Source of the DNA: a virus
Lineage: Duplodnaviria; Caudoviricetes
Length of the DNA stretch: 64,000 nucleotides
Strand: one strand, 5' to 3'
IMG/VR virus record: IMGVR_UViG_3300030330_004628
Coordinates: 6,841 to 70,840 of that record
A model generated the notes under the pieces. It saw nothing but the letters and a program-made list of their open reading frames with translations. It made no database searches and was not told the DNA's origin. The translations under genes were made by a program, and so were the position numbers. Positions 1 to 62,180 of the stretch are shown here, one piece after another; the first letter of the stretch is position 1; every line of letters begins with the position of its first letter.

Positions 1-123
1 TCTTCCTTGTCCCCTATAAGGTTTTTTATAACTATTTTGTGACTTGCTAGCATTTTTGCTATGCACGCCTTTTCGTTTTTTACCCCCATTACTTCTAAAC
101 ACAAAATTATTTCCCTTTGCCAT
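1..123 (-). CDS. Small basic protein with C-terminal KPYRGQGR motif (runs off window edge; not in ORF track)
   Basis: Manual translation from ATG at 123: MAKGNNFVFRSNGGKKRKGVHSKNASKSQNSYKKPYRGQGR. It overlaps the end of the holin gene and resembles small Lys/Arg-rich phage proteins ending in YRGQG. Confidence 0.65.
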   Translation of the reverse strand, partial: MAKGNNFVFRSNGGKKRKGVHSKNASKSQNSYKKPYRGQGR

Positions 124-499
124 TTCTTACTTTTTCTAATGAGCGTCCTCCAAAATAAGAACCCACGATTGTTATTAGTACCATTGTTAATAAATCTGTC
201 CACTTTTCTTCAACTTGAAACTCAAGAAATCCAGCGTCTATAAATATCAAAAGCATAGTACACACCATTACAAATATAAGCATTAATGGTCTAACGTTTT
301 TTGACAGCCATGAATCGCTATTCATATCAGCTTTCCACCTGTCTGTTATATTCTGCTCCATTTGGGCTTGATGACTAAGTATAAGCTCTTTTAATTTTCT
401 TTTAGCATCTAACCTTTCTTCATCGGTAGTTATTACCTCATCTAATATTTCACCTGCATTACCAATCAGGTTTTTAACTATTCCTTTTAACATACGCAA
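107..499 (-). CDS. Holin, 3TM/GTA-holin-like
   Basis: RW-x-ADM-x-SDSWLSKNVRP motif followed by hydrophobic helices and YFGGRS-x-EK; adjacent to the endolysin. Confidence 0.8.
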   Translation of the reverse strand: MRMLKGIVKNLIGNAGEILDEVITTDEERLDAKRKLKELILSHQAQMEQNITDRWKADMNSDSWLSKNVRPLMLIFVMVCTMLLIFIDAGFLEFQVEEKWTDLLTMVLITIVGSYFGGRSLEKVRNGKGK

Positions 500-975
500 T
501 TACCATTAGTTATATCTTTATACGTGATTGTCACGTCTTGCCCTATCTTTATAGCTTTAGCTATTTCTGGATATATTCTTTTGTAAGCCTGTGTAGACTT
601 ACCTATAAAACCGTCCTTCTTGATTTTGTTGTTTTCTTGAGAGTCCCCGACAAGGAGACAACCTGCAGTATGCTCATCGGTATTACCACAATGTATAAGT
701 ATATAATCAAAATTAGGCACATCAAGAACGTGAAGCATCCCAATATGAATGTCGCTAAAACGTTTTTTATATCTTTCATTATACCCACCAACAGTCCTAA
801 GACCAAGCTTATAAGTCCCTTCAGGGATTCTAGTTTCTCCATATTTTTTTTCTTTTCTATATTCATCTTCTAATGTATAACACAAAAACTCTTTATCAAA
901 GTCTCCGTTTGATTTGTATAATAAACCGCTTGTAGAGTCATCACTGTTTGACACCCTTATTACCTCTAGTTTCAT
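487..975 (-). CDS. Endolysin, DUF5675-type L,D-peptidase
   Basis: CYTLED...IPEGTY...ILIHCGNT..HTAGCLLVG, with the His and Cys typical of the L,D-transpeptidase-like DUF5675 family common in crAss-like phages. Confidence 0.8.
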   Translation of the reverse strand: MKLEVIRVSNSDDSTSGLLYKSNGDFDKEFLCYTLEDEYRKEKKYGETRIPEGTYKLGLRTVGGYNERYKKRFSDIHIGMLHVLDVPNFDYILIHCGNTDEHTAGCLLVGDSQENNKIKKDGFIGKSTQAYKRIYPEIAKAIKIGQDVTITYKDITNGNCVC

Positions 976-6678: not shown

Positions 6679-7164
6679 TTAACCTTCTTCAAAGAATCCT
6701 CCTTCACCAGCAGGAACACCTCCTAAGTTACTTGAAGGGTTGTCGTCAATAACAATAAAATCGCCAAACAGCCAGTGTGTTAATTGGTCTGTATTTTCTG
6801 TAGAGTCAACTTTTTGTGTAAATATATTATATTTATATACACCAGGGGCAGGCCAAAAGCCAACATCATTGGTTGATGTTATTGTTATTTTTCCGTCTTC
6901 AACAGTTGTGTTAAATGTAATTGGCGTGGGGGTGTTGTTTGATAAAACGCCGCCTTGATAAGCAGCATATATATTTTGCATTTGATTTCCCGATGGTGTT
7001 AATACCTGAAAGTAACCATTGTCTGTTTCTGTAGAAGAGTTTGTGAAATCATAGTTTTCTCCACTACTTGTTTTAACATTAATAACCAATTGAAAATGAT
7101 TACCTCTTAAAGCTTTTATGGTAACCTTTTGTGCTGAATATGCTAATAACTCTTGTAACGCCAT
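6679..7164 (-). CDS. BppU-N-like beta-sandwich adaptor protein
   Basis: LRGN-x-F...GVYKY...WLFGDF-x-V pattern typical of small phage baseplate/fibre adaptor domains. Confidence 0.55.
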   Translation of the reverse strand: MALQELLAYSAQKVTIKALRGNHFQLVINVKTSSGENYDFTNSSTETDNGYFQVLTPSGNQMQNIYAAYQGGVLSNNTPTPITFNTTVEDGKITITSTNDVGFWPAPGVYKYNIFTQKVDSTENTDQLTHWLFGDFIVIDDNPSSNLGGVPAGEGGFFEEG

Positions 7165-7553
7165 TATTGAAACTTATTTAATATTATTGTATCTACAGAG
7201 TATTGTATTGTTTTTTTGTCCACCTCTAATTGAAACATTATATTAGGACCAAACCTTTCTCTTTCTTCTCCATTTTCAAAAACTAAAACAGTTGGTATTG
7301 CAGACACATTATATTTGTTTTGTATTTTACTACACTTACCTATATCAACCCTATACTTCTCACACTCCTTGAGTTTATTTAGTTCTGCAAATTGGTTAGC
7401 AGAATTCCACTCAACCCAAAATTCTACTACAACAACATCTTTTGCTATTGTTTTATTAAAGTTGTCAGAACTTACAAATTCCTGTCCAAAAGCGCTACCT
7501 ACTAAAAAAAATAAAACACCTAATAAAATTAATATATGATTAGCTATATTCAT
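7164..7553 (-). CDS. Exported thioredoxin-fold protein lacking CxxC
   Basis: Signal peptide (..GSAFG/QE), then VVVEFWVEWN in place of V-x-F-W-A-x-W-C, then KYNVSAIPTVLVFENG (cis-Pro loop). Confidence 0.7.
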   Translation of the reverse strand: MNIANHILILLGVLFFLVGSAFGQEFVSSDNFNKTIAKDVVVVEFWVEWNSANQFAELNKLKECEKYRVDIGKCSKIQNKYNVSAIPTVLVFENGEERERFGPNIMFQLEVDKKTIQYSVDTIILNKFQ

Positions 7554-7831
7554 TGCATGTCGTCTATTTTGTCCCTAAGATATTTAATGTCTTCTTTAAT
7601 TTCTTTGACATCTTCTTGTGTTGTCATAATAGTGGCACGTATCATTTTGTCTTTCATGTCAAACTCCATTTTAGTAACTTCTGGTTTTGGTGGAATTGGA
7701 AGTTCTTTTGCTTCAGCTATATCGGCTTGTAGTGTAAACCACATACCCACAAAAGCAAAAATTAAAACGGCTAACCCGCCTAATGTTTTTAGACTTACTT
7801 CAAACTTGGATTCTTCTGATATTTCTTTCAT
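7550..7831 (-). CDS. Single-TM plus coiled-coil membrane protein (spanin/holin-accessory-like)
   Basis: Hydrophobic helix LGGLAVLIFAFVGMWFTL and C-terminal heptads (VKEIKEDIKYLRDKIDDMQ). Confidence 0.55.
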   Translation of the reverse strand: MKEISEESKFEVSLKTLGGLAVLIFAFVGMWFTLQADIAEAKELPIPPKPEVTKMEFDMKDKMIRATIMTTQEDVKEIKEDIKYLRDKIDDMQ

Positions 7832-8043
7832 TTTTTTGCGAATTTTTCAACTCCACTAATTCCAAAACATCCAAGAACTACCCACACAAAGGAGTCATAT
7901 ACAAACTTATTAATAACTAGGTCTTTGCCCACCCACCCTGTTACTAAGTCAGCTATCATAATTAAGACCATAATAGCAAAGGCAACAAATCCAATTATAG
8001 ATTTTTCGTTCCAATTATTATCGTCTTTAAATATGTTCATCAT
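7828..8043 (-). CDS. Small 2-TM membrane protein (holin-like)
   Basis: Two hydrophobic helices and a basic C-terminus in 71 aa. Confidence 0.55.
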   Translation of the reverse strand: MMNIFKDDNNWNEKSIIGFVAFAIMVLIMIADLVTGWVGKDLVINKFVYDSFVWVVLGCFGISGVEKFAKK

Positions 8044-8402
8044 TTCTTCTTTTTTCCACCCCAGTATTCAACGGCAAAACCCTCTTTTACTAAAGTGTTA
8101 TTTACGTTAATAGGCAAGCCTAAGTCGTCTGGGTATATATGTAACACGCCCAAAACTCTACCAAACTTACCAACGCTTTGACTCTCTACAACTAAATCAC
8201 CTTTATCTAAAAGCTCAACTAATCTATCTTTAGATGCTAGTCCACGCTTTTTTTCTTCCAAGTCTCTGGTTCTAGATTCTGGAGTATCAATGCCTGCTAG
8301 TCTAATTCTTTTTTTTATGGTTACATCAAACCCTAAATCTATATTAGCATCTATTGTGTCTCCGTCAATAACTCTTGCTACCTCTGCTTTGTAGGTGTAC
8401 AT
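8040..8402 (-). CDS. Thermonuclease (SNase-like) family nuclease
   Basis: RVIDGDT, RIRLAGIDTPE, GKFGRVL and LVKEGFA motifs; no signal peptide. Confidence 0.9.
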   Translation of the reverse strand: MYTYKAEVARVIDGDTIDANIDLGFDVTIKKRIRLAGIDTPESRTRDLEEKKRGLASKDRLVELLDKGDLVVESQSVGKFGRVLGVLHIYPDDLGLPINVNNTLVKEGFAVEYWGGKKKK

Positions 8403-8593
8403 TAATCGTATTGTTGAGTAAACATGTCTCTCCTGCCGCCTTTCTTTTTGCGTTTTTTAGAAGATGAATATTTAACTTTTCCACCCTCTTTAAACAGTTT
8501 ACCTGCTAGCATACCTACTGGTCCTAACATACCAGAACCCGCAGCTCCTTTAACAACGTTACCAACCTTGCTCATAATATCTTTAAAAGCCAT
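8402..8593 (-). CDS. Small Gly-rich/basic protein with FKEGG motif
   Basis: 63 aa, coupled to neighbours; amphipathic N-half and Lys-rich C-half. Confidence 0.55.
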   Translation of the reverse strand: MAFKDIMSKVGNVVKGAAGSGMLGPVGMLAGKLFKEGGKVKYSSSKKRKKKGGRRDMFTQQYD

Positions 8594-8595
8594 AA

Positions 8596-9231
8596 TTAAT
8601 TTATTTTATATTTAATACTACCTCCTTCGATGTAAACACCTTCTGGTCTTCTTATTACTTGTCCCTGTAAATTATATAGTAAATTATCAGATATTGATTT
8701 ATCTAATATTTCCCCAAGCGAACTGTTACAAGGCAAACCAGTGTCGCAATCTATATATTCTGTATTGATTTCCATTATTGTGTCAATAATAAATATCTCA
8801 ACATATTCTATAACATCTATAAACATTGTATCTAATACATCTGCATATACAGTGTCTGTGTTATATATATATTCTGTTTCTATAATTGTTTCGTACTCAA
8901 CTATTGTATCATACTCTGTTATATACTCATATTCTATTACTGGAATCTCCACATATACTGTGTCACATTCTTCTGCTGGTGGAGCGCATTCTTCAGCTTC
9001 TGTAGGAACAGCTCCATTCTCATCACCCGCATCAATACAATCTTCCCAACCATCATTAAGCCAAGAGTTTTGAACACATCCCATTGGAGCATATTGAGTC
9101 CAATTAGAAGGGTCATCACCACAATAAAATCCGTCCGCTTCTGCGCAGTCTAAACATAGTTGCTGAAAGTCATATCCTTGAGAAAAGGCAAAAGAAGATA
9201 TGATAAACAATATGGATAATAGTTTCTTCAT
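8596..9231 (-). CDS. Secreted protein: signal peptide, LDL-receptor class A-like module, D-T-x-rich stalk, T9SS-type C-terminal tail
   Basis: MKKLLSILFIISSFAFS/Q; FYC...CVQNSWLNDGWEDCIDAGDE; five D-T-[VIM] triplets; LLYNLQGQVIRRPEGVYIEGGSIKYKIN. Confidence 0.65.
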   Translation of the reverse strand: MKKLLSILFIISSFAFSQGYDFQQLCLDCAEADGFYCGDDPSNWTQYAPMGCVQNSWLNDGWEDCIDAGDENGAVPTEAEECAPPAEECDTVYVEIPVIEYEYITEYDTIVEYETIIETEYIYNTDTVYADVLDTMFIDVIEYVEIFIIDTIMEINTEYIDCDTGLPCNSSLGEILDKSISDNLLYNLQGQVIRRPEGVYIEGGSIKYKIN

Positions 9232-9232
9232 A

Positions 9233-10297
9233 TTACAAAAATAAATAATTTATACCAATCTTAAATTCATGTAGTGGCTTCATCCAATATCTCTGGTGAG
9301 TTCCCTCCATAAATAATCCCAAGCTTTTTGTTAACCTAACCCCCAATACAAGACCTGCGTCCCATTCTATTACGGCTGGTATAGGGTCTTCCTCCCACTG
9401 GGGTAGTGTGTAATCGAAGCTATAATCATCGAGTCCAACATGGTAAGGAAGAATATTCATCCAGCCGTGTAACCACCATTCAGGAGTCCATTTGTAATAA
9501 GCAACTCCCAGTGTAACGGATAATTCTTTTTGTAGTCCTAGTTTTTCTAATTCACTATCATTAAAATCATCAATAGCATTACCAAAATGGTACTCCATAA
9601 ACTCTCCTGTTGTGTGAGCCACTTGTACTGAATCTCCACTAGATATATCAAACCAATCATAGTTAACGTAGTTTCCCTGCATCCATTGTTCACTTACATA
9701 ACCAAAGTCTTCTGCTATAGCGTTAAATGGTGTTACTGCGGGGTCCCAAAACTCATATATTGGTAAAAAGCCATATGCTGGGTGCACTCTAAATGCTCCG
9801 CCTATTGTAAAATCCCAATTACCAACGTTTTTACGCCATTTAAGCTCAGATAATATATATTTAAGGTCTACCCTTTGATTGTCCACAAACTGTGCTTTAA
9901 AAACATACGAATCACTCAAATAACGTAAGAAGAAATCCTGATTTATGTACTCTTCTCCCCTATCTCGTATAAATGAAATATTTGCAAGGTACTCAAAACC
10001 CTTTGCATTACCTATGGGGGCTTTATTAGACATTGTAGACTCTGTTCCATCATAAAAAGACTTAATCTTTCCCTCATAATCAAAACGAGCCACTTTGCGC
10101 CATCCTAATGTAAAATTATAATCATATGGATTAATTTCTGTTATATCTATAAGTTGTTTGTCTTCTATCTTAAACATGCCGTCTTCTAGGGTAGAAGAAC
10201 CCATTGTAGAAGACGCGTAAAAAGTAGAATACTTAAAGAAGTTTTGTGAGCTACATAATGTAGTTAACAATATAAAAAATAATAATATCTTTTTCAT
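9233..10297 (-). CDS. Putative outer-membrane beta-barrel protein (start corrected to MKKILLF at 10297)
   Basis: Signal peptide ending ..LCSS/Q, many alternating amphipathic beta-strands, C-terminal beta-signal-like FKIGINYLFL. Confidence 0.65.
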   Translation of the reverse strand: MKKILLFFILLTTLCSSQNFFKYSTFYASSTMGSSTLEDGMFKIEDKQLIDITEINPYDYNFTLGWRKVARFDYEGKIKSFYDGTESTMSNKAPIGNAKGFEYLANISFIRDRGEEYINQDFFLRYLSDSYVFKAQFVDNQRVDLKYILSELKWRKNVGNWDFTIGGAFRVHPAYGFLPIYEFWDPAVTPFNAIAEDFGYVSEQWMQGNYVNYDWFDISSGDSVQVAHTTGEFMEYHFGNAIDDFNDSELEKLGLQKELSVTLGVAYYKWTPEWWLHGWMNILPYHVGLDDYSFDYTLPQWEEDPIPAVIEWDAGLVLGVRLTKSLGLFMEGTHQRYWMKPLHEFKIGINYLFL

Positions 10298-10301
10298 TAC
10301 A

Positions 10302-10309
10302 CAAATATA
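10302..10309 (-). promoter_or_regulatory. Bacteroidota sigma70-type -7 element TATATTTG, 4 nt before the beta-barrel ATG
   Basis: Exact TAnnTTTG match; lies in a 16-mer identical to the one at 14021-14036. Confidence 0.7.
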
Positions 10310-10313
10310 CAAA

Positions 10314-56780: not shown

Positions 56781-57260
56781 ATGGCAAAACATGAACTTAA
56801 TTATACTATTATTAGAGAAGCCTTGGGCGAGTATCTAAAAAATAAAGAAGTTATACCTATATATAACCAAAAACAAATAAAAGAAGAATCTTACAAGCTT
56901 GAAGACTTAGAAAATTCTAAAGCATTTCTTGTTGACAATGCACCAAGAAAAAGAATAAGAGTTGATTTAAACATTACAAAACAAATTTTATTTGAAACTC
57001 TAGAAAACTTTTTAAGAATAGAACAAAAACCACAATATTTTACTAGTGGTCAATCATATTCAGCAGTAGATAAAAAAAAGTTTGAACAAGTAGAAACTTA
57101 CCTCCAATTAGACAGTGGAGCAAGTTTAGATGTTAGAGTAGATAAAATGATTTGGGTTATAGACAACCTTTTAAGTTGTGGAAACTTAAGAGCTAACATA
57201 ACAAAAGACCAGGTAGAAAGACTTGTAATAGCAACCGAAAACTTACCAAAACATGAGTAA
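56781..57260 (+). CDS. Hypothetical protein
   Basis: 159-aa ORF in the operon. Confidence 0.7.
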   Translation: MAKHELNYTIIREALGEYLKNKEVIPIYNQKQIKEESYKLEDLENSKAFLVDNAPRKRIRVDLNITKQILFETLENFLRIEQKPQYFTSGQSYSAVDKKKFEQVETYLQLDSGASLDVRVDKMIWVIDNLLSCGNLRANITKDQVERLVIATENLPKHE

Positions 57261-57345
57261 GTTCTGGGATGAAGGGGTAAATGGTATACCCTTCGATGCA
57301 ATAGATGAATACCATGAATTAATTAATAACGAAAAAAATATAAAT

Positions 57346-58284
57346 ATGTGTGGATTAGTAGGCTTTTCAGGTAAAGCAAACACAAGTGTGTTAAAAGCTT
57401 TACATTTATTAGCGGACAATGATTCCAGAGGTGGCCACTCTACAGGAATGTTCGCAAATGGTAAAATATATAAAACATTAGATGAGTCTATGAATATATT
57501 ACCAATGCTTGAGTCAAATGATACAGGCAGTGTTCTTATAGGACACACAAGATATGGTACTCATGGTGCTAACACCACTGAGAATGCACATCCATTTCAG
57601 CACAAAGGAATTATAGGTGCTCACAATGGTGTGTTAGATAACTACGAAGAGGTAGGTAAAAAGTATGGTATAAAGAAAACAGCTGTTGATTCAGAAATGA
57701 TTATTAAAGTACTAGGAGAAAAACGAGATGCTAGTAAATTAGGATTATTTGGTGGAACAAAAGCTGTATTATATACCGCCAATGACAATAAGCTTTATGT
57801 GTACCGACATAATAACCCATTGTTCTATTTAAGAAAAGAAGAAGGTGTTTATTTTAGCTCACTCAAAGATGGCCTAGAAAATATAGCAGGCAAAAATGAA
57901 AAAGTAAAAGAGTGTAAAAAAGATAAACTATTTATTTGGGAAAATGGAGAATTGTTGCAAACAATTAACATTAAACACAAACCTATACCAGCCACTAAAG
58001 TTATAAATACAAATTGGCAATCATATGGTAATTATAATAATATGGACAGGTATACAATACCCTCACGCTCAAGCATTTACGAACAAGCTAACATATTTGA
58101 ACAAGATGATTGGGACACTATAGAAGAAGAGGATTATATTAAAGCAGAAAATTTGCAAAAGATAAGTCAAAGGCTACAGGAACTTGAAGAACATCTTGAT
58201 ATGGATGTCGACTCAAGACAAAGCTTAAGAGATGCAATAGTTGCTTTAGATGATATAGCTAACGAAATTTATTATTCATATTAA
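57346..58284 (+). CDS. Class II (Ntn) glutamine amidotransferase (in-frame upstream ATG at 57253)
   Basis: MCGLVG N-terminal nucleophile, RGGHSTG, GHTRYGT.G......AHPF, GAHNGV, VDSE. Confidence 0.9.
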   Translation: MCGLVGFSGKANTSVLKALHLLADNDSRGGHSTGMFANGKIYKTLDESMNILPMLESNDTGSVLIGHTRYGTHGANTTENAHPFQHKGIIGAHNGVLDNYEEVGKKYGIKKTAVDSEMIIKVLGEKRDASKLGLFGGTKAVLYTANDNKLYVYRHNNPLFYLRKEEGVYFSSLKDGLENIAGKNEKVKECKKDKLFIWENGELLQTINIKHKPIPATKVINTNWQSYGNYNNMDRYTIPSRSSIYEQANIFEQDDWDTIEEEDYIKAENLQKISQRLQELEEHLDMDVDSRQSLRDAIVALDDIANEIYYSY

Positions 58285-58295
58285 AACTTTAGATT

Positions 58296-59540
58296 ATGGG
58301 AAAAGAATTAGAAGAAGGTTTGGTTATTGATTTGCATGGCGATGAACAACATGAAGATGACTGTGTTCGGCTACATAATGGAGATTGGTGTCATCAAGAT
58401 GAATCAAAATTCAATGAGTCAGATGGAGAATATTATCATGAAGATGATGACTCTATAATGTGGTGTGAAACTACTGAATGTTATTATGATGAAGGAGATA
58501 TGATTTATGGCGAACTGTATCAAGGTGGAGAGGGCTGGTTTCATCAAGACACTGACTATTCTTATTCAGAATATTCTGATAGATATTTTCAGTGTGCCGA
58601 AACAGCACGAGCCGCAGGATATGATTGGTCTAGCAATAGAGAAGACTGGATTCCAGAAGATGAATACAATGATTATGAGTGCTGGGATGCGACAGCAATC
58701 ACTAAAGACACTATGTTTACTGAAACATATGGAATGCCTTATACATTTGGTGTTGAGATGGAAACTTGTGATGGTTATTTAGACTATACATCTAAATATA
58801 ATCTTAAGTGTGTAGAAGATGGTAGTATAAATGCACAAGAATATGTAACAGGTATATTACAAGGCGATAAAGGCATGAAAGAATTAGAAGACATATGCCA
58901 AGCTATTAGTGAACAATGTTATGTTGATAAAACTTGTGGTGTTCATGTGCATATAGGTGGAGCTAACTTCAATAGAAGATTTGCTATACTATCTATTATG
59001 CTAGGACAAATGATGCAATCACAATTATTTAGAATTCAACCTAAATCAAGGAGAAAAAATACTTACTGCAAAGAAATACCTGAAAAATACAGGGAGTTAA
59101 GAACAGTAAATAAAAAACTATTTCCTTATACATATAAAAGAATGTTAAGGTTGCTTTCTAAATATATTGCTAATAGTTCAGAAGGATTTGACAAACATAA
59201 TTGTAAAAAATCATCTAATCCTAATGGACACTATTCATCTACACGCTATAAGTGGCTCAATCTAAATAACTTTAGTTATAGAGATAGGGGAGACACCATA
59301 GAATTTAGACAACATAGTGGCTCACTTGATTATAATAAAATAAGAAGGTGGGTGTTATTTTGCATGAGTTATGTTAACTTTGTTGAAAATCATTCAAGAA
59401 CCATAATAGAAGCTTATAATAGATTCCAAGAAGACCCAGCTATATGTATATCAATGCGTGAAGTATTGGTTGCAAGCTTAGGTAAAGAGGGAGATAATAT
59501 AGCAGACTATTATGATAAACGTGAAGAACGATTTAATTAA
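58296..59540 (+). CDS. Putative amidoligase (Amidoligase_2, glutamate-cysteine-ligase-like COOH-NH2 ligase) with acidic repetitive N-terminus
   Basis: FGVEMET, EDGSI, EYVT, TCGVHVHIG, RYKWLNL, TIEFRQHSGSLD. Confidence 0.85.
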   Translation: MGKELEEGLVIDLHGDEQHEDDCVRLHNGDWCHQDESKFNESDGEYYHEDDDSIMWCETTECYYDEGDMIYGELYQGGEGWFHQDTDYSYSEYSDRYFQCAETARAAGYDWSSNREDWIPEDEYNDYECWDATAITKDTMFTETYGMPYTFGVEMETCDGYLDYTSKYNLKCVEDGSINAQEYVTGILQGDKGMKELEDICQAISEQCYVDKTCGVHVHIGGANFNRRFAILSIMLGQMMQSQLFRIQPKSRRKNTYCKEIPEKYRELRTVNKKLFPYTYKRMLRLLSKYIANSSEGFDKHNCKKSSNPNGHYSSTRYKWLNLNNFSYRDRGDTIEFRQHSGSLDYNKIRRWVLFCMSYVNFVENHSRTIIEAYNRFQEDPAICISMREVLVASLGKEGDNIADYYDKREERFN

Positions 59541-60590: not shown

Positions 60591-60898
60591 AAAGTTTATT
60601 TGATACATTCTGGAAAGAATACCCTCGCAAGGTGGGTAAAAAACAATCCCTTGACGCATGGCTAAGGCTCAAACCCTCGCCAGAATTATACTCTACAATA
60701 ATGGAAGCTTTATCTAACCAAAAAAGATATAAAGTTACTTGTGATACCCATAATATATGGGCTCCAGACTTTCCTCACCCTGTGCGGTGGATTAAACACG
60801 AAAGATGGGAAGATGAAGTTCCAGAATTGTCAGATATAATCAAAGATTCAAAATTTATTTATAAACCGCCTAAAAACAATACAAGAGATGAAAGATAG
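60587..60898 (+). CDS. Stand-alone DnaD-like/replication-initiator C-terminal domain
   Basis: FDTFWKEYPRKVGKK....W...PHPVRWIKHERWEDE. Confidence 0.7.
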   Translation: MKSLFDTFWKEYPRKVGKKQSLDAWLRLKPSPELYSTIMEALSNQKRYKVTCDTHNIWAPDFPHPVRWIKHERWEDEVPELSDIIKDSKFIYKPPKNNTRDER

Positions 60899-62180
60899 AG
60901 ACTATTTAGAAAAGGTTTTATTAGGCAAATTAATGTTAGGTAAAGAAAACTACTACGACAACCACTCATTATTAACAGCAGATTTATTTGAAAACCCTGA
61001 GCATAAGAGATTGTATATTATTATGGACTCATCATATCAAAATATGGGTAAATGTGATATGACAGAGTTTTACAATAAATCTAAAGACAAGTATAAGGCT
61101 ATATCGTTAGCACAAGAATGTAACGATAGAGCTTATGACCCATACTTGGCTCAAAAGTTAATACTATTATTGTTGGAAAAAAATAAACTGAGTCAATTAG
61201 AAACACTTGCAAACACTATGAATAGAAAGATAACGAATAATGATGATTTATTCACTATCATTGACTATGCGGAAACTGAATTACAGAAAATTGGCAATGT
61301 TTCTAACGACAGGCTTGTTCATATTAGTGAGCAAATGCCTGGTATGGTTAGGTCTATTGAAAAAAATGTTAATAATCAAGGGATGACTGGTATTCCTAGT
61401 GGATTTAACGATATAGATAAGTTTACTAGTGGGTGGCAAAAACAAGATTTAGTTATTATTGGTGGAGCGTCATCTATGGGTAAGACTAGTTTTGCTCTTA
61501 ATGTTGCTGTTAATGCGGCAGAAAGAGGTTATAAATGCGTGGTATTTTCTTATGAAATGTCTGTTAATCAAATGCTTATGCGTATGGTTAGTGGAGATGC
61601 TGGTATAGACAACAAGCACATGCTTAAAGGAGCTATATATCAAGATGAGTGGGGAAAAATACATAAAAGTATAGGTAGGTTTGATAAAATGCCTTTATAT
61701 ATTGATGAATGTAGAAACACTTCTCTTAAATATCTTCTTAATAGAATGCGTCAATATGTTATAACAAAAGAAGTTGATATGGTAGTCGTAGATTATCTTC
61801 AATTAATTAGTTATAATATAAGTGGACGAAGCAGGGAGCAAGAGGTGTCACATGTAACAAGAGCATTAAAAAATTTAGCAAAAGAATTAGATATAACAGT
61901 ATTAGCGCTTTCTCAACTTTCTAGAAACGTGAGTAAACGCGATGGGGGTCGTCCTACTCTAGCCGATTTGAGAGAATCTGGGGAAATAGAGCAAGCTGCT
62001 GATACAGTTATATTTGTATATAGGCCTGAGTATTACAATATTACAGTAGATGAAAGAGGTAATAGTGTGGTAGGATTGGCTGAAATTATATTTGCTAAAG
62101 GTAGAAATATAGGTATAGGTAGTAAACATTTAAAATTTATAGATTACCTTACCAAGTTTGAAAATCTACCAACAATGTAA
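60888..62180 (+). CDS. dnaB: Replicative DNA helicase DnaB-like
   Basis: GASSMGKT Walker A, FSYEMS, VVVDYLQL, LSQLSR, LADLRESGEIEQAAD, IFAKGRN. Confidence 0.93.
   Translation: MKDRDYLEKVLLGKLMLGKENYYDNHSLLTADLFENPEHKRLYIIMDSSYQNMGKCDMTEFYNKSKDKYKAISLAQECNDRAYDPYLAQKLILLLLEKNKLSQLETLANTMNRKITNNDDLFTIIDYAETELQKIGNVSNDRLVHISEQMPGMVRSIEKNVNNQGMTGIPSGFNDIDKFTSGWQKQDLVIIGGASSMGKTSFALNVAVNAAERGYKCVVFSYEMSVNQMLMRMVSGDAGIDNKHMLKGAIYQDEWGKIHKSIGRFDKMPLYIDECRNTSLKYLLNRMRQYVITKEVDMVVVDYLQLISYNISGRSREQEVSHVTRALKNLAKELDITVLALSQLSRNVSKRDGGRPTLADLRESGEIEQAADTVIFVYRPEYYNITVDERGNSVVGLAEIIFAKGRNIGIGSKHLKFIDYLTKFENLPTM

What the first reader, a model, noticed from the sequence alone, without database searches (positions are those of the whole stretch)
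8596..9231. LDL-receptor-like architecture: LA module, predicted O-glycosylated stalk and T9SS tail
Seen: FYC...CVQNSWLNDGWEDCIDAGDE retains the W-x-x-D-G-x-x-D-C-x-D-x-x-D-E Ca-cage of LDL class A repeats, with one Cys replaced by Asn. A ~75-aa stalk follows with five D-T-[VIM] triplets (DTV, DTI, DTV, DTM, DTI), then YNLQGQ..RPEGVYI.GG..K. Established: D-[ST]-[AILVMT] is the Bacteroidota O-glycosylation sequon, and the tail resembles short Prevotella-type T9SS CTDs. Inference: a host-glycosylated, surface-displayed decoy or receptor that converges on the eukaryotic LDLR layout.
Basis: partly seen in the sequence, partly recalled or inferred. Interest (0 to 1): 0.8.

Follow-up and report, generated by a model that had tools for sequence, protein, structure and literature searches.

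The report
Phage surface protein from host parts
An abundant group of marine crAss-like phages encodes a small exported protein built from parts of its Flavobacteriales host's surface proteins (a calcium-cage binding head, a sugar-site-rich repeat stalk and a miniature secretion tail), so the phage probably puts its own protein on the infected cell's surface.

Summary
All three features are real. They lie on the minus strand (8596-9231), in a 211-aa ORF of a complete 70.8-kb marine crAss-like phage.

- **Head (res 18-88):** a divergent LDL-receptor class A (LA) module. The Ca-cage residues are invariant and Cys4 is replaced by Asn. It falls below Pfam's cut-off. Support comes from profile hits, an AF2 model at pLDDT 95-97 that matches only LA modules, and bacterial homologues carrying true LA, dockerin and T9SS tails.
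- **Stalk (89-161):** a length-variable beta-type repeat with strict two-residue register. It has one D-T-[IVLM] sequon per ~14 residues, tenfold over shuffles. Glycosylation is untested.
- **Tail (162-211):** misses the standard T9SS C-terminal domain (CTD) HMMs. It fits the experimentally defined 'short CTD' class of Prevotella intermedia, and its profile preferentially retrieves motif B of canonical CTDs.

Stalk plus tail occur once per genome on varied cargo in small-genome marine Flavobacteriales that have a T9SS. In 79 of 80 related phage loci the gene directly follows a phage-specific gene that looks like an outer-membrane beta-barrel.

The 'decoy/LDLR convergence' reading is unproven. 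The head is homologous to host modules, not convergent. Earlier follow-ups in this scan reached a similar reading on other genomes.

The parts
8596..9231 (-). Whole ORF (211 aa plus stop) for an exported head-stalk-tail protein
   Evidence: More than 1300 homologues at 90% clustering, many from marine samples (Tara), and none carries a Pfam annotation among those listed. 230 IMG/VR contigs encode a relative.
9181..9231 (-). Signal peptide (res 1-17). Predicted SPase I cut AFS|Q18, which fits the Bacteroidota Q-rule.
   Evidence: Read directly from the sequence. Q18 is kept in at least 90% of 30 homologues. The Q-rule is described in PMC10367356. No signal-peptide predictor was available.
8968..9180 (-). 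Acidic six-Cys head (res 18-88; 17 D/E, no K/R)
   Evidence: AF2 pLDDT 95-97 for residues 21-80. Composition.
9019..9147 (-). LA-like core (res 29-71). C29=C1, C37=C2, a 10-aa insert, C52=C3, N59 in place of C4, C65=C5. Ca cage: W57, D60, W62, D64, D70, E71.
8749..8967 (-). Stalk (res 89-161). It starts with the conserved C89-D-T and carries five D-T-[VIM] sequons. The register is dipeptide: T/Y on odd positions, V/I/E/D on even positions.
   Evidence: AF2 pLDDT is below 50 here.
8599..8748 (-). C-terminal tail (res 162-211). Cys loop C162-DTGLP-C168, helix 172-182, then motif B-like Y186-N-L-Q-G190-Q, motif D-like G198-V-Y200-I201, and motif E-like K207/K209.
   Evidence: PMC11969387
9233..10312 (-). 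Phage-specific gene for a candidate outer-membrane beta-barrel (359 aa; the barrel fold is a lead, not shown). It is the conserved upstream partner and ends 1 nt before the ORF's start codon.
   Evidence: Directly upstream in 79 of 80 related viral loci. Conserved C-terminal FGFNYL[IF]F. Atlas features point to OMP families as a lead only.
7164..8043 (-). Downstream conserved envelope genes: tm71 (7828-8043), tm93 (7550-7831) and a signal-peptide thioredoxin-like protein without CxxC (7164-7553)
   Evidence: Present in 50, 71 and 72 of 80 loci, on the same strand. Thioredoxin Pfam hit.

Best explanation
The gene encodes a Sec-exported envelope protein of a marine crAss-like phage that infects small-genome Flavobacteriales. 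It is a mosaic of host surface-protein modules.

Shown here:
- A signal peptide that fits the Bacteroidota Q-rule.
- A head that is a derived LA-type Ca-cage module. The C4-C6 disulfide is lost (C4 is Asn), the C2-C3 loop carries a 10-residue insert, and there are still six Cys.
- A length-variable beta-type repeat stalk with one D-T-[IVLM] per ~14 residues, all in one register.
- A 50-aa tail with the motifs, spacing and length of a short T9SS type-A CTD.
- The same stalk plus tail at the extreme C-terminus of chromosomal, cargo-variable secreted proteins. These were found in 4 of 401 Flavobacteriales genomes. The two genomes checked for SprA and long CTDs have both, and all four have PorP/SprF-family genes and PorV or a PorV-like match.
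- Strict pairing with a phage-specific gene that looks like an outer-membrane barrel.

Inferred mechanism:
1. SPase I cuts before Q18.
2. The head folds oxidatively and binds Ca2+ in the periplasm.
3. The host's general O-glycosylation system modifies the stalk threonines.
4. The short CTD takes the protein through the host T9SS.
5. The protein is then released or tied to the cell surface, so the stalk holds the acidic head away from the cell.
6. The head binds a basic (Lys/Arg) ligand the way LA modules do.

Most likely purpose, with low confidence: remodelling the infected cell's surface, for example masking a receptor against superinfection or against loss of progeny on debris.
For: Phage identity: IMG/VR record with direct terminal repeats, plus Crass_capsid, P22_portal and CrAss ring proteins 1 and 2.

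Head:
- 28 of 30 homologues hit Ldl_recept_a, best E 2.8e-4.
- The family profile against PDB gives LA-type hits in 55 of 57 rows, best E 2.6e-4, and the alignment assigns C1-C5.
- The AF2 head has pLDDT 95-97.
- Only 19 of 48,161 chains reach Z>=2 and all 16 entries listed contain LA modules, with rmsd 2.1-5.5 A over 35-44 residues (2.1-2.6 A for the best six).
- Bacterial homologues carry Ldl_recept_a up to 44 bits, Dockerin_1 and Por_Secre_tail.
- A 61%-identical copy sits at the N-terminus of a chromosomal protein in MAG G001.

Stalk: sequon excess, spacing even in 696 of 710 cases, and sequon count tracking stalk length with r=0.96.

Tail:
- It is always at the extreme C-terminus of signal-peptide proteins with LamG, trypsin, SprB, thyroglobulin-1 or LRR-like (by eye) cargo.
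- These proteins sit in chromosomal bacterial contexts.
- 23 of the 28 best hits of the tail profile in 400 Bacteroidia genomes end within 60 aa of an ORF's stop, against ~4.5 expected. About 20 of them are canonical CTDs aligned on motif B, IYNLxGQ.
- Short CTDs of 43-55 aa, with three strands and a B-D gap of 1-6 aa, are cleaved and glycosylated in P. intermedia (PMC11969387).

Host T9SS: SprA and 25-36 long CTDs in the two genomes checked (G001, G002); PorP/SprF-family genes in all four; PorV over its cut-off in three of four.

Synteny.

Precedent for phage-encoded T9SS cargo: PMC7468147.
Against: - The protein itself scores only 7.1 bits on Ldl_recept_a (cut-off 24.1), and the canonical six-Cys pattern is not kept.
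- No Por_Secre_tail, DUF6383 or NCBIfam CTD model hits any of 30 homologues, even at E<=10.
- hhalign of the tail against long CTDs gives probability 15% (P 0.0018), and 7% against DUF6383. Both align only the motif-B strand.
- Each candidate host genome carries this tail once, which is odd for a general sorting signal.
- The stalk could not be modelled. Its two semi-hydrophobic faces suggest a folded or oligomeric beta structure in which the Thr residues might be buried.
- The mature protein has nine Cys, so one is unpaired or forms an intermolecular bond.
- The paired candidate barrel has no detectable relation to PorV or PorP/SprF and no host homologue, so its role is open.
- Nothing here tests secretion, glycosylation, Ca binding or phenotype.
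Confidence: 0.55

Rival explanations
1. The protein is exported but is not T9SS cargo. The tail is instead a docking domain for the co-encoded phage candidate barrel, or for another outer-membrane component. The pair would then form a self-contained phage surface-display or outer-membrane complex that does not need PorV/SprA.
For: The candidate barrel gene is directly upstream in 79 of 80 loci. The standard CTD HMMs are negative. The tail occurs only once per host genome.
Against: Bacterial proteins with the same tail have no such barrel next to them, and the four host genomes have no homologue of it. The tail profile retrieves T9SS CTD motif B specifically.
Confidence: 0.2
2. It is the outer-membrane-side component of a lysis or outer-membrane-disruption complex, analogous to a spanin. 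It would work with the candidate barrel, the type-II membrane protein tm93 and tm71.
For: It sits in the late operon with small membrane proteins. In a relative the module lies next to a DUF5675 gene, which in this window sits beside the holin. The odd Cys count could allow intermolecular disulfides, as in o-spanins.
Against: There is no lipobox. The holin and DUF5675 genes of this phage lie ~7.6 kb downstream, at 107-975. The head and stalk plus tail are shared with ordinary host surface proteins. A variable-length stalk with an LA head is unlike any known spanin.
Confidence: 0.1
3. It is a soluble periplasmic or released Ca-binding protein with no surface anchoring. Examples would be a periplasmic decoy, or a competitor that occupies the host T9SS shuttle.
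For: Many flavobacterial type-A cargo are released rather than anchored (general knowledge). The protein is very acidic, with 43 D/E against 5 K/R.
Against: A conserved, length-variable stalk between head and tail makes most sense as a spacer from a surface. The same module carries candidate adhesin-type cargo (LRR-like by eye, SprB repeats, lectin) in hosts.
Confidence: 0.12
4. It is a virion structural or decoration protein.
For: The gene lies among late genes, between very large ORFs (1799 and 3917 aa) whose function was not tested here.
Against: It has a cleavable Sec signal peptide with the Q-rule and nine Cys that need an oxidising compartment. Its modules are shared with secreted bacterial proteins.
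Confidence: 0.03

Closest known systems
LDL-receptor class A (complement-type) repeat, Pfam PF00057
   Same: It has the pattern C3-x6-[C4 position]-D-G-x-x-D-C5-x-D-x-x-D-E with an aromatic residue two positions before the C4 site. The Ca-cage residues are invariant. C1-C2-C3-C5 keep their spacing and the aromatic before C2 is kept. The AF2 model superposes on LA modules at 2.1-2.6 A over 35-38 residues. Homologous modules occur in bacterial proteins that pass Pfam's cut-off.
   Different: C4 is Asn in 134 of 140 family domains and C6 is not at its place. An extra Cys lies three residues before C1 and another 16 residues after C5. The C2-C3 loop has a 10-residue insert. The own score is far below the gathering cut-off. 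The setting is a phage or bacterial envelope, not an animal receptor.
'Short' T9SS C-terminal domains of Prevotella intermedia (Ye et al. 2025, PMC11969387)
   Same: It is ~50 aa at the extreme C-terminus of a signal-peptide protein. It has motif B (Y...G followed by basic residues), a 4-5-residue B-D gap, motif D (G-x-Y-I) and motif E with two basic residues. The predicted structure is a few short strands preceded by a helix. The candidate hosts also have long CTDs and T9SS components (SprA, PorV, PorP/SprF).
   Different: It is in marine Flavobacteriales and their phages, not Prevotella. It is preceded by a conserved Cys loop (CDTGLPC). It occurs once per host genome rather than in dozens of cargo. 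It was not tested against the authors' HMM. Cleavage and attachment are unknown.
Phage-encoded T9SS cargo of 'Cryophage' (Bellas et al. 2020, PMC7468147)
   Same: A phage of a Bacteroidota host carries variable genes for secreted proteins with a T9SS sorting signal.
   Different: Those proteins have canonical type-A sorting domains and enzyme cargo. This one has a miniature tail, an LA-like binding head and an obligatory phage-specific partner gene (candidate barrel).
T9SS-secreted, O-glycosylated surface proteins of Bacteroidota (for example the Tannerella forsythia glycoproteome, PMC8550257)
   Same: Sec export, D-[ST]-[AILVMT] sequons and a C-terminal T9SS signal occur in one protein.
   Different: Here the sequons sit in a regular repeat, one per ~14 residues in strict register. 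No glycan has been observed.

Membership tests
LDL-receptor class A repeat (PF00057) | Score over Pfam's gathering cut-off (24.1 bits) | tested here: not met
   P0001 scores 7.1 bits, E 8.7. 28 of 30 homologues hit weakly, best E 2.8e-4. Homologous segments of bacterial proteins lie in proteins that score 16.9-30.4 bits overall.
LDL-receptor class A repeat (PF00057) | Six Cys at canonical spacing (C1-C3, C2-C5, C4-C6) | tested here: not met
   The C4 position is Asn in 134 of 140 domains, and C6 is absent at D-E-x2-3-C. Disulfide pairing itself was not testable.
LDL-receptor class A repeat (PF00057) | Ca-cage residues (aromatic, D, backbone position, D, D, E) | tested here: met
   W57 (W or Y across the family), D60, W62, D64, D70 and E71. 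Apart from W57 these are invariant in 30 members.
LDL-receptor class A repeat (PF00057) | LA fold | tested here: met
   AF2 pLDDT is 95-97. All 16 entries listed among the 19 chains (of 48,161) with Z>=2 contain LA modules, with Z 2.0-2.9 and rmsd 2.1-5.5 A (2.1-2.6 A for the best six). Z is low because the domain is ~40 aa, so this match is weak on its own.
LDL-receptor class A repeat (PF00057) | Ca2+ binding and binding of basic ligands | not testable with these tools
   Needs ITC, a crystal structure or pull-downs.
T9SS type-A CTD, long form (PF18962 / TIGR04183) | HMM match | tested here: not met
   No Por_Secre_tail hit, and no NCBIfam CTD model listed, at E<=10 in any of 30 family members. 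hhalign probability is 15%, over 19 columns only. The positive control, CTD against DUF6383, gives 98%.
T9SS type-A CTD, long form (PF18962 / TIGR04183) | Seven-stranded beta-sandwich of ~70-90 aa | tested here: not met
   The tail is 50 aa. AF2 shows a helix and three to four short strands at pLDDT 73-85.
Short T9SS CTD (P. intermedia type, PMC11969387) | 43-55 aa at the extreme C-terminus of a signal-peptide protein | tested here: met
   Residues 162-211. In every longer homologue the match ends within about two residues of the C-terminus.
Short T9SS CTD (P. intermedia type, PMC11969387) | Motifs B, D and E with a B-D gap of 1-6 aa | tested here: met
   Y186...G190-Q-x-I-R-R; G198-x-Y200-I201; K207 and K209. 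The tail profile finds motif B of canonical CTDs: 23 of the 28 best hits are C-terminal against ~4.5 expected.
Short T9SS CTD (P. intermedia type, PMC11969387) | Single three-stranded sheet equivalent to strands 3, 6 and 7 | tested here: inconclusive
   AF2 gives strands at 184-185/191-192, 199-202 and 205-208 after a helix, at pLDDT 73-85. No structural comparison with a short CTD was possible.
Short T9SS CTD (P. intermedia type, PMC11969387) | Match to the authors' short-CTD HMM | not tested
Short T9SS CTD (P. intermedia type, PMC11969387) | T9SS-dependent secretion, PorU cleavage and glycan attachment | not testable with these tools
   What can be shown is that the candidate hosts have T9SS parts: SprA and 25-36 long CTDs in the two genomes checked, PorP/SprF in all four, and PorV over its cut-off in three of four.
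Bacteroidota general O-glycosylation substrates | Sec-exported protein carrying D-[ST]-[AILVMT] | tested here: met
   The signal peptide was read by eye. There are five sequons against 0.54 expected. After D-T the next residue is I, V, M, L, T or A in 820 of 833 cases across the family. The motif is as given in PMC8550257.
Bacteroidota general O-glycosylation substrates | Glycan actually attached | not testable with these tools
   Needs glycoproteomics.
o-spanin (lysis) | Lipoprotein signal with Cys at +1 | tested here: not met
   The signal peptide ends AFS|QG, with no lipobox.

The most novel reading that the evidence does not exclude
Stalk plus tail would be an undescribed surface-display cassette of uncultured marine Flavobacteriales, and the first short T9SS CTD outside Prevotella. 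Abundant crAss-like phages would have captured it and coupled it to a phage-invented outer-membrane barrel. Barrel and cargo would together form a phage-controlled display system that plants a Ca-dependent LA-type binding head on infected cells, blocking superinfection or loss of progeny on debris.
Probability: 0.22. Interest if true: 0.75.

Novelty: new variant of a known kind. Interest (0 to 1): 0.6.

Why it matters
- It shows phages assembling an envelope protein from two different host surface-protein genes. This ties a very abundant, uncultured group of marine crAss-like phages to a specific host lineage: small-genome Flavobacteriales, including a single-cell genome.
- If the tail is a working short CTD, this minimal T9SS signal extends beyond Prevotella intermedia, the only species for which it has been reported. 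It would also offer a 50-residue tag for secretion studies.
- The LA-type Ca-cage is best known from animal receptors. A bacterial and phage variant lacking one disulfide is useful for understanding the minimal fold.
- The function of the conserved barrel-plus-cargo pair is unknown and can be tested experimentally.

Tried and rejected
- **Phage database searches.** Megablast of the region and tblastn of the protein against 50,697 phage records gave no match. PHROGs gave no family for the protein or its neighbours except the nuclease.
- **First AF2 run.** With 30 close homologues the mean pLDDT was 48.9 and the head was unresolved. Only the 150-sequence alignment resolved the head. The stalk stayed below pLDDT 50 in both runs.
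- **Foldseek against PDB.** No hit reached E<=0.001, although the list was dominated by LA modules.
- **Profile-profile comparison of the tail.** Against long CTDs and DUF6383 it aligned only the motif-B strand. The reversed-profile control gave P 0.35-0.4.
- **DUF6383 as the 'short CTD' family.** It proved to be a normal-length CTD relative (98% to type-A CTDs) and not a match for the tail.
- **The candidate barrel as PorV or PorP/SprF.** hhalign gave P 0.67 and 0.12. It has no Pfam or PDB hit and no homologue in four candidate host genomes.
- **ESM Atlas look-alikes of the tail.** They pointed to CTD-bearing Bacteroidota proteins only at lead level, 0.77-0.79.
- **Unpublished genomes.** G576 and G493 appeared in the genome table. 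No claim here rests on them.

Full report
**What is there.** The finding's coordinates hold a 211-aa ORF on the minus strand (8596-9231, stop included). It sits in a tightly packed late operon. The upstream gene ends 1 nt before its ATG, and the next gene starts 2 nt after its stop. The window belongs to a complete 70,840-bp IMG/VR virus record with direct terminal repeats. That record encodes a Crass_capsid major capsid protein (113.8 bits), a P22-like portal, CrAss tail ring proteins 1 and 2, and a DUF5675 plus 3-TM holin pair at 107-975. It is therefore a marine crAss-like phage.

**The family.** A search of 5.8 billion proteins returned 1307 relatives at E<=0.01. Many come from marine samples such as Tara, none of those listed carries a Pfam annotation, and they are 183-342 aa long. 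IMG/VR holds 230 contigs that encode a relative. An alignment of 30 diverse members (A1) shows four parts:
- a signal peptide ending ...S|Q (Q18 kept in at least 90%);
- a conserved Cys-rich head;
- a middle region whose length varies by insertion of repeat blocks;
- a conserved C-terminal ~50 residues.

The two neighbouring signal-peptide proteins also have Gln right after the predicted signal peptide. This is the Bacteroidota 'Q-rule' as described in PMC10367356. It is an independent hint that the host is a Bacteroidota member.

**Head: an LA-like module, a variant and not a canonical member.**
- The protein itself scores only 7.1 bits on Ldl_recept_a, against a cut-off of 24.1. However, 28 of 30 relatives give the same weak hit, best E 2.8e-4.
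- A profile of 150 relatives searched against all PDB sequences returns LA-type modules in 55 of 57 rows (VLDLR, LRP1, LDLRAD3, CD320, enteropeptidase, Tva and others), best E 2.6e-4.
- The printed alignment assigns C29=C1, C37=C2, a 10-residue insert, C52=C3, Asn59 in place of C4, and C65=C5.
- The Ca-cage positions are invariant. Asn occupies the C4 position in 134 of 140 family domains.
- With the deep alignment AF2 models residues 21-80 at pLDDT 95-97.
- An exhaustive structural comparison with 48,161 chains gave only 19 with Z>=2. All 16 entries listed contain LA modules, with Z 2.0-2.9 and rmsd 2.1-5.5 A over 35-44 residues (2.1-2.6 A for the best six). Foldseek's non-significant list is likewise dominated by LA modules.
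- A phmmer scan of 1.84 billion representatives found the head inside large proteins. These also carry Ldl_recept_a over the cut-off, Dockerin_1 and Por_Secre_tail. One of them has a canonical six-Cys LA module with the same GG[YF]YC...DGW.DC.DG.DE wording.
- A 61%-identical copy follows the signal peptide of a chromosomal protein in a Flavobacteriales MAG.

The head is thus homologous to bacterial LA-type modules, not convergent with animal ones. It fails two defining tests of the canonical family: the score cut-off and the six-Cys pattern.

**Stalk.**
- Residues 89-161 start with a conserved Cys-Asp-Thr and end at ...EYID before Cys162.
- The five sequons compare with 0.54 expected from composition-preserving shuffles. 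Over 120 relatives the count is 830 against 78. After D-T the next residue is I, V, M, L, T or A in 820 of 833 cases.
- Sequon number follows stalk length (r=0.96), one per ~14 residues.
- Spacing between sequons is even in 696 of 710 cases. Odd positions are mostly T and Y, and even positions mostly V, I, E and D.

This is a strict two-residue register typical of extended beta structure, not a mucin-like linker. AF2 gives pLDDT below 50 here in both runs. The sequon D-[ST]-[AILVMT] is the established Bacteroidota O-glycosylation motif (PMC8550257). Whether these threonines are glycosylated cannot be told from sequence.

**Tail.** Standard models fail. No Por_Secre_tail, DUF6383 or NCBIfam CTD model hits any of 30 relatives at E<=10. 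hhalign against long CTDs aligns only 19 columns, at probability 15%. Three observations nevertheless point to a T9SS signal.
1. **Position.** In the representative search the module (last stalk repeats plus tail) always ends at the C-terminus of signal-peptide proteins. Their cargo differs: LamG lectin, trypsin, SprB repeats, thyroglobulin-1 and LRR-like repeats.
2. **Published short CTDs.** Ye et al. 2025 (PMC11969387) showed experimentally that P. intermedia uses 'short' CTDs. These are 43-55 aa with three strands equivalent to strands 3, 6 and 7 of long CTDs. Motifs B and D are only 1-6 residues apart, a helix sometimes precedes them, and they are cleaved and glycan-linked like long ones. 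The tail fits: Y186-N-L-Q-G190-Q-V-I-R-R, then G198-V-Y200-I201, then K207 and K209. AF2 predicts a helix at 172-182 followed by short strands, at pLDDT 73-85.
3. **Profile search.** I searched a tail-only profile (A5) against 400 Bacteroidia genomes. Of the 28 best weak hits, 23 end within 60 aa of the ORF's stop codon, against about 4.5 expected from ORF lengths. About 20 are plainly canonical type-A CTDs aligned on their motif B, IYNLxGQ.

I therefore read the tail as a miniature type-A CTD, with moderate confidence.

**Where stalk and tail come from.**
- A scan of 185,579 species genomes and a sample of 401 Flavobacteriales found the module in four small (1-1.5 Mb) genomes, once each. One of them is a single-cell genome.
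- The gene contexts are chromosomal: TonB, gamma-glutamyltranspeptidase, lysyl-tRNA synthetase, RseP, chorismate synthase and L19/TrmD.
- The two genomes checked have SprA and 25-36 long CTDs. All four have PorP/SprF-family genes, and three of four have PorV over its cut-off.

The phage gene is thus a mosaic of two host-lineage genes, and it points to these uncultured Flavobacteriales as hosts.

**Context.**
- In 79 of 80 related viral loci a 336-360-aa gene lies directly upstream, at a median gap of 12 nt. It has a signal peptide and a conserved C-terminal FGFNYL[IF]F.
- A type-II membrane protein is found in 71 of 80 loci, a signal-peptide thioredoxin-like protein without CxxC in 72, and a two-TM protein in 50.
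- This upstream protein looks like an outer-membrane beta-barrel only at lead level. It has no Pfam or PDB relative and no homologue in the four host genomes. It shows no profile similarity to host PorV or PorP/SprF.

**Mechanism and rivals.** The most likely course is as follows.
1. Sec export and cleavage before Q18.
2. Oxidative folding and Ca2+ loading of the head.
3. Possible O-glycosylation of the stalk.
4. T9SS passage through the short CTD.
5. Display or release of an acidic LA-type head that binds a basic ligand.

Only the architecture, the homologies, the distribution and the synteny are shown; the rest is inference. Rival readings are a barrel-dependent display pair that does not need T9SS, a lysis or outer-membrane complex, a soluble periplasmic protein, and a virion protein. 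The last is very unlikely.

**Precedent and novelty.** Phage-encoded T9SS cargo has been described with canonical CTDs (PMC7468147). LA-type heads on a short-CTD stalk, strictly paired with a phage barrel, have not turned up in the papers I searched. Earlier follow-ups in this scan reached a similar reading on other genomes. One of their leads, the Ye et al. paper, I read and tested myself.

Noticed in passing
window 9233-10312 (-): A 359-aa signal-peptide protein with a conserved C-terminal FGFNYL[IF]F looks like an outer-membrane beta-barrel. It lies directly upstream of the head-stalk-tail gene in 79 of 80 related phage loci. It has no Pfam or PDB hit, no homologue in candidate hosts, and no profile similarity to PorV or PorP/SprF.
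   Followed up: partly
window 7164-7553 (-): A periplasmic thioredoxin-fold protein (Pfam Thioredoxin, 35.7 bits) has a signal peptide, but W-N-S-A-N stands where W-C-x-x-C should be. It is conserved in 72 of 80 related loci. It might be a redox-inactive chaperone for the Cys-rich cargo.
   Followed up: partly
window 7550-8043 (-): Two small membrane proteins follow: a 93-aa type-II protein with a helical periplasmic part, and a 71-aa two-TM protein. They are conserved downstream in 71 and 50 of 80 loci, and their role is unknown.
   Followed up: partly
window 8040-8593 (-): A staphylococcal-nuclease-like gene (phrog_452, E 1e-37) sits inside the envelope module in only 22 of 80 relatives. A 63-aa Gly/Lys-rich ORF is found in 2 of 80. 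They look like mobile insertions.
   Followed up: partly
window 107-975 (-): DUF5675 (100 bits) and a GTA_holin_3TM holin lie at the end of the late operon and are probably the lysis cassette. In a relative (L002) DUF5675 lies just upstream of the barrel-plus-cargo pair.
   Followed up: no
L006:4303-6207 and proteins P0149, P0164, P0169, P0181: Bacterial tail-bearing proteins carry many copies of a ~24-aa Cys-rich unit, GC[TM]D..ACNY[ND]..A...DGSC.Y, which has no Pfam family. It lies between the cargo and the stalk.
   Followed up: no
protein P0133 (115 aa, metagenome): In this natural variant the LA-like head joins directly to the tail with no stalk. It may be a real minimal form or an assembly artefact.
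   Followed up: no
L007:4714-6225: The single-cell-genome homologue has a very regular 14-residue stalk unit (DTLYVDNFIYETLW, about ten copies) after a leucine-rich-repeat-like region. It would be a good subject for structural work on the stalk.
   Followed up: no
window 57253-59540 (+) and 60888-62180 (+): The opposite-strand region holds a class-II glutamine amidotransferase, an Amidoligase_2 and a DnaB-type helicase.
   Followed up: no
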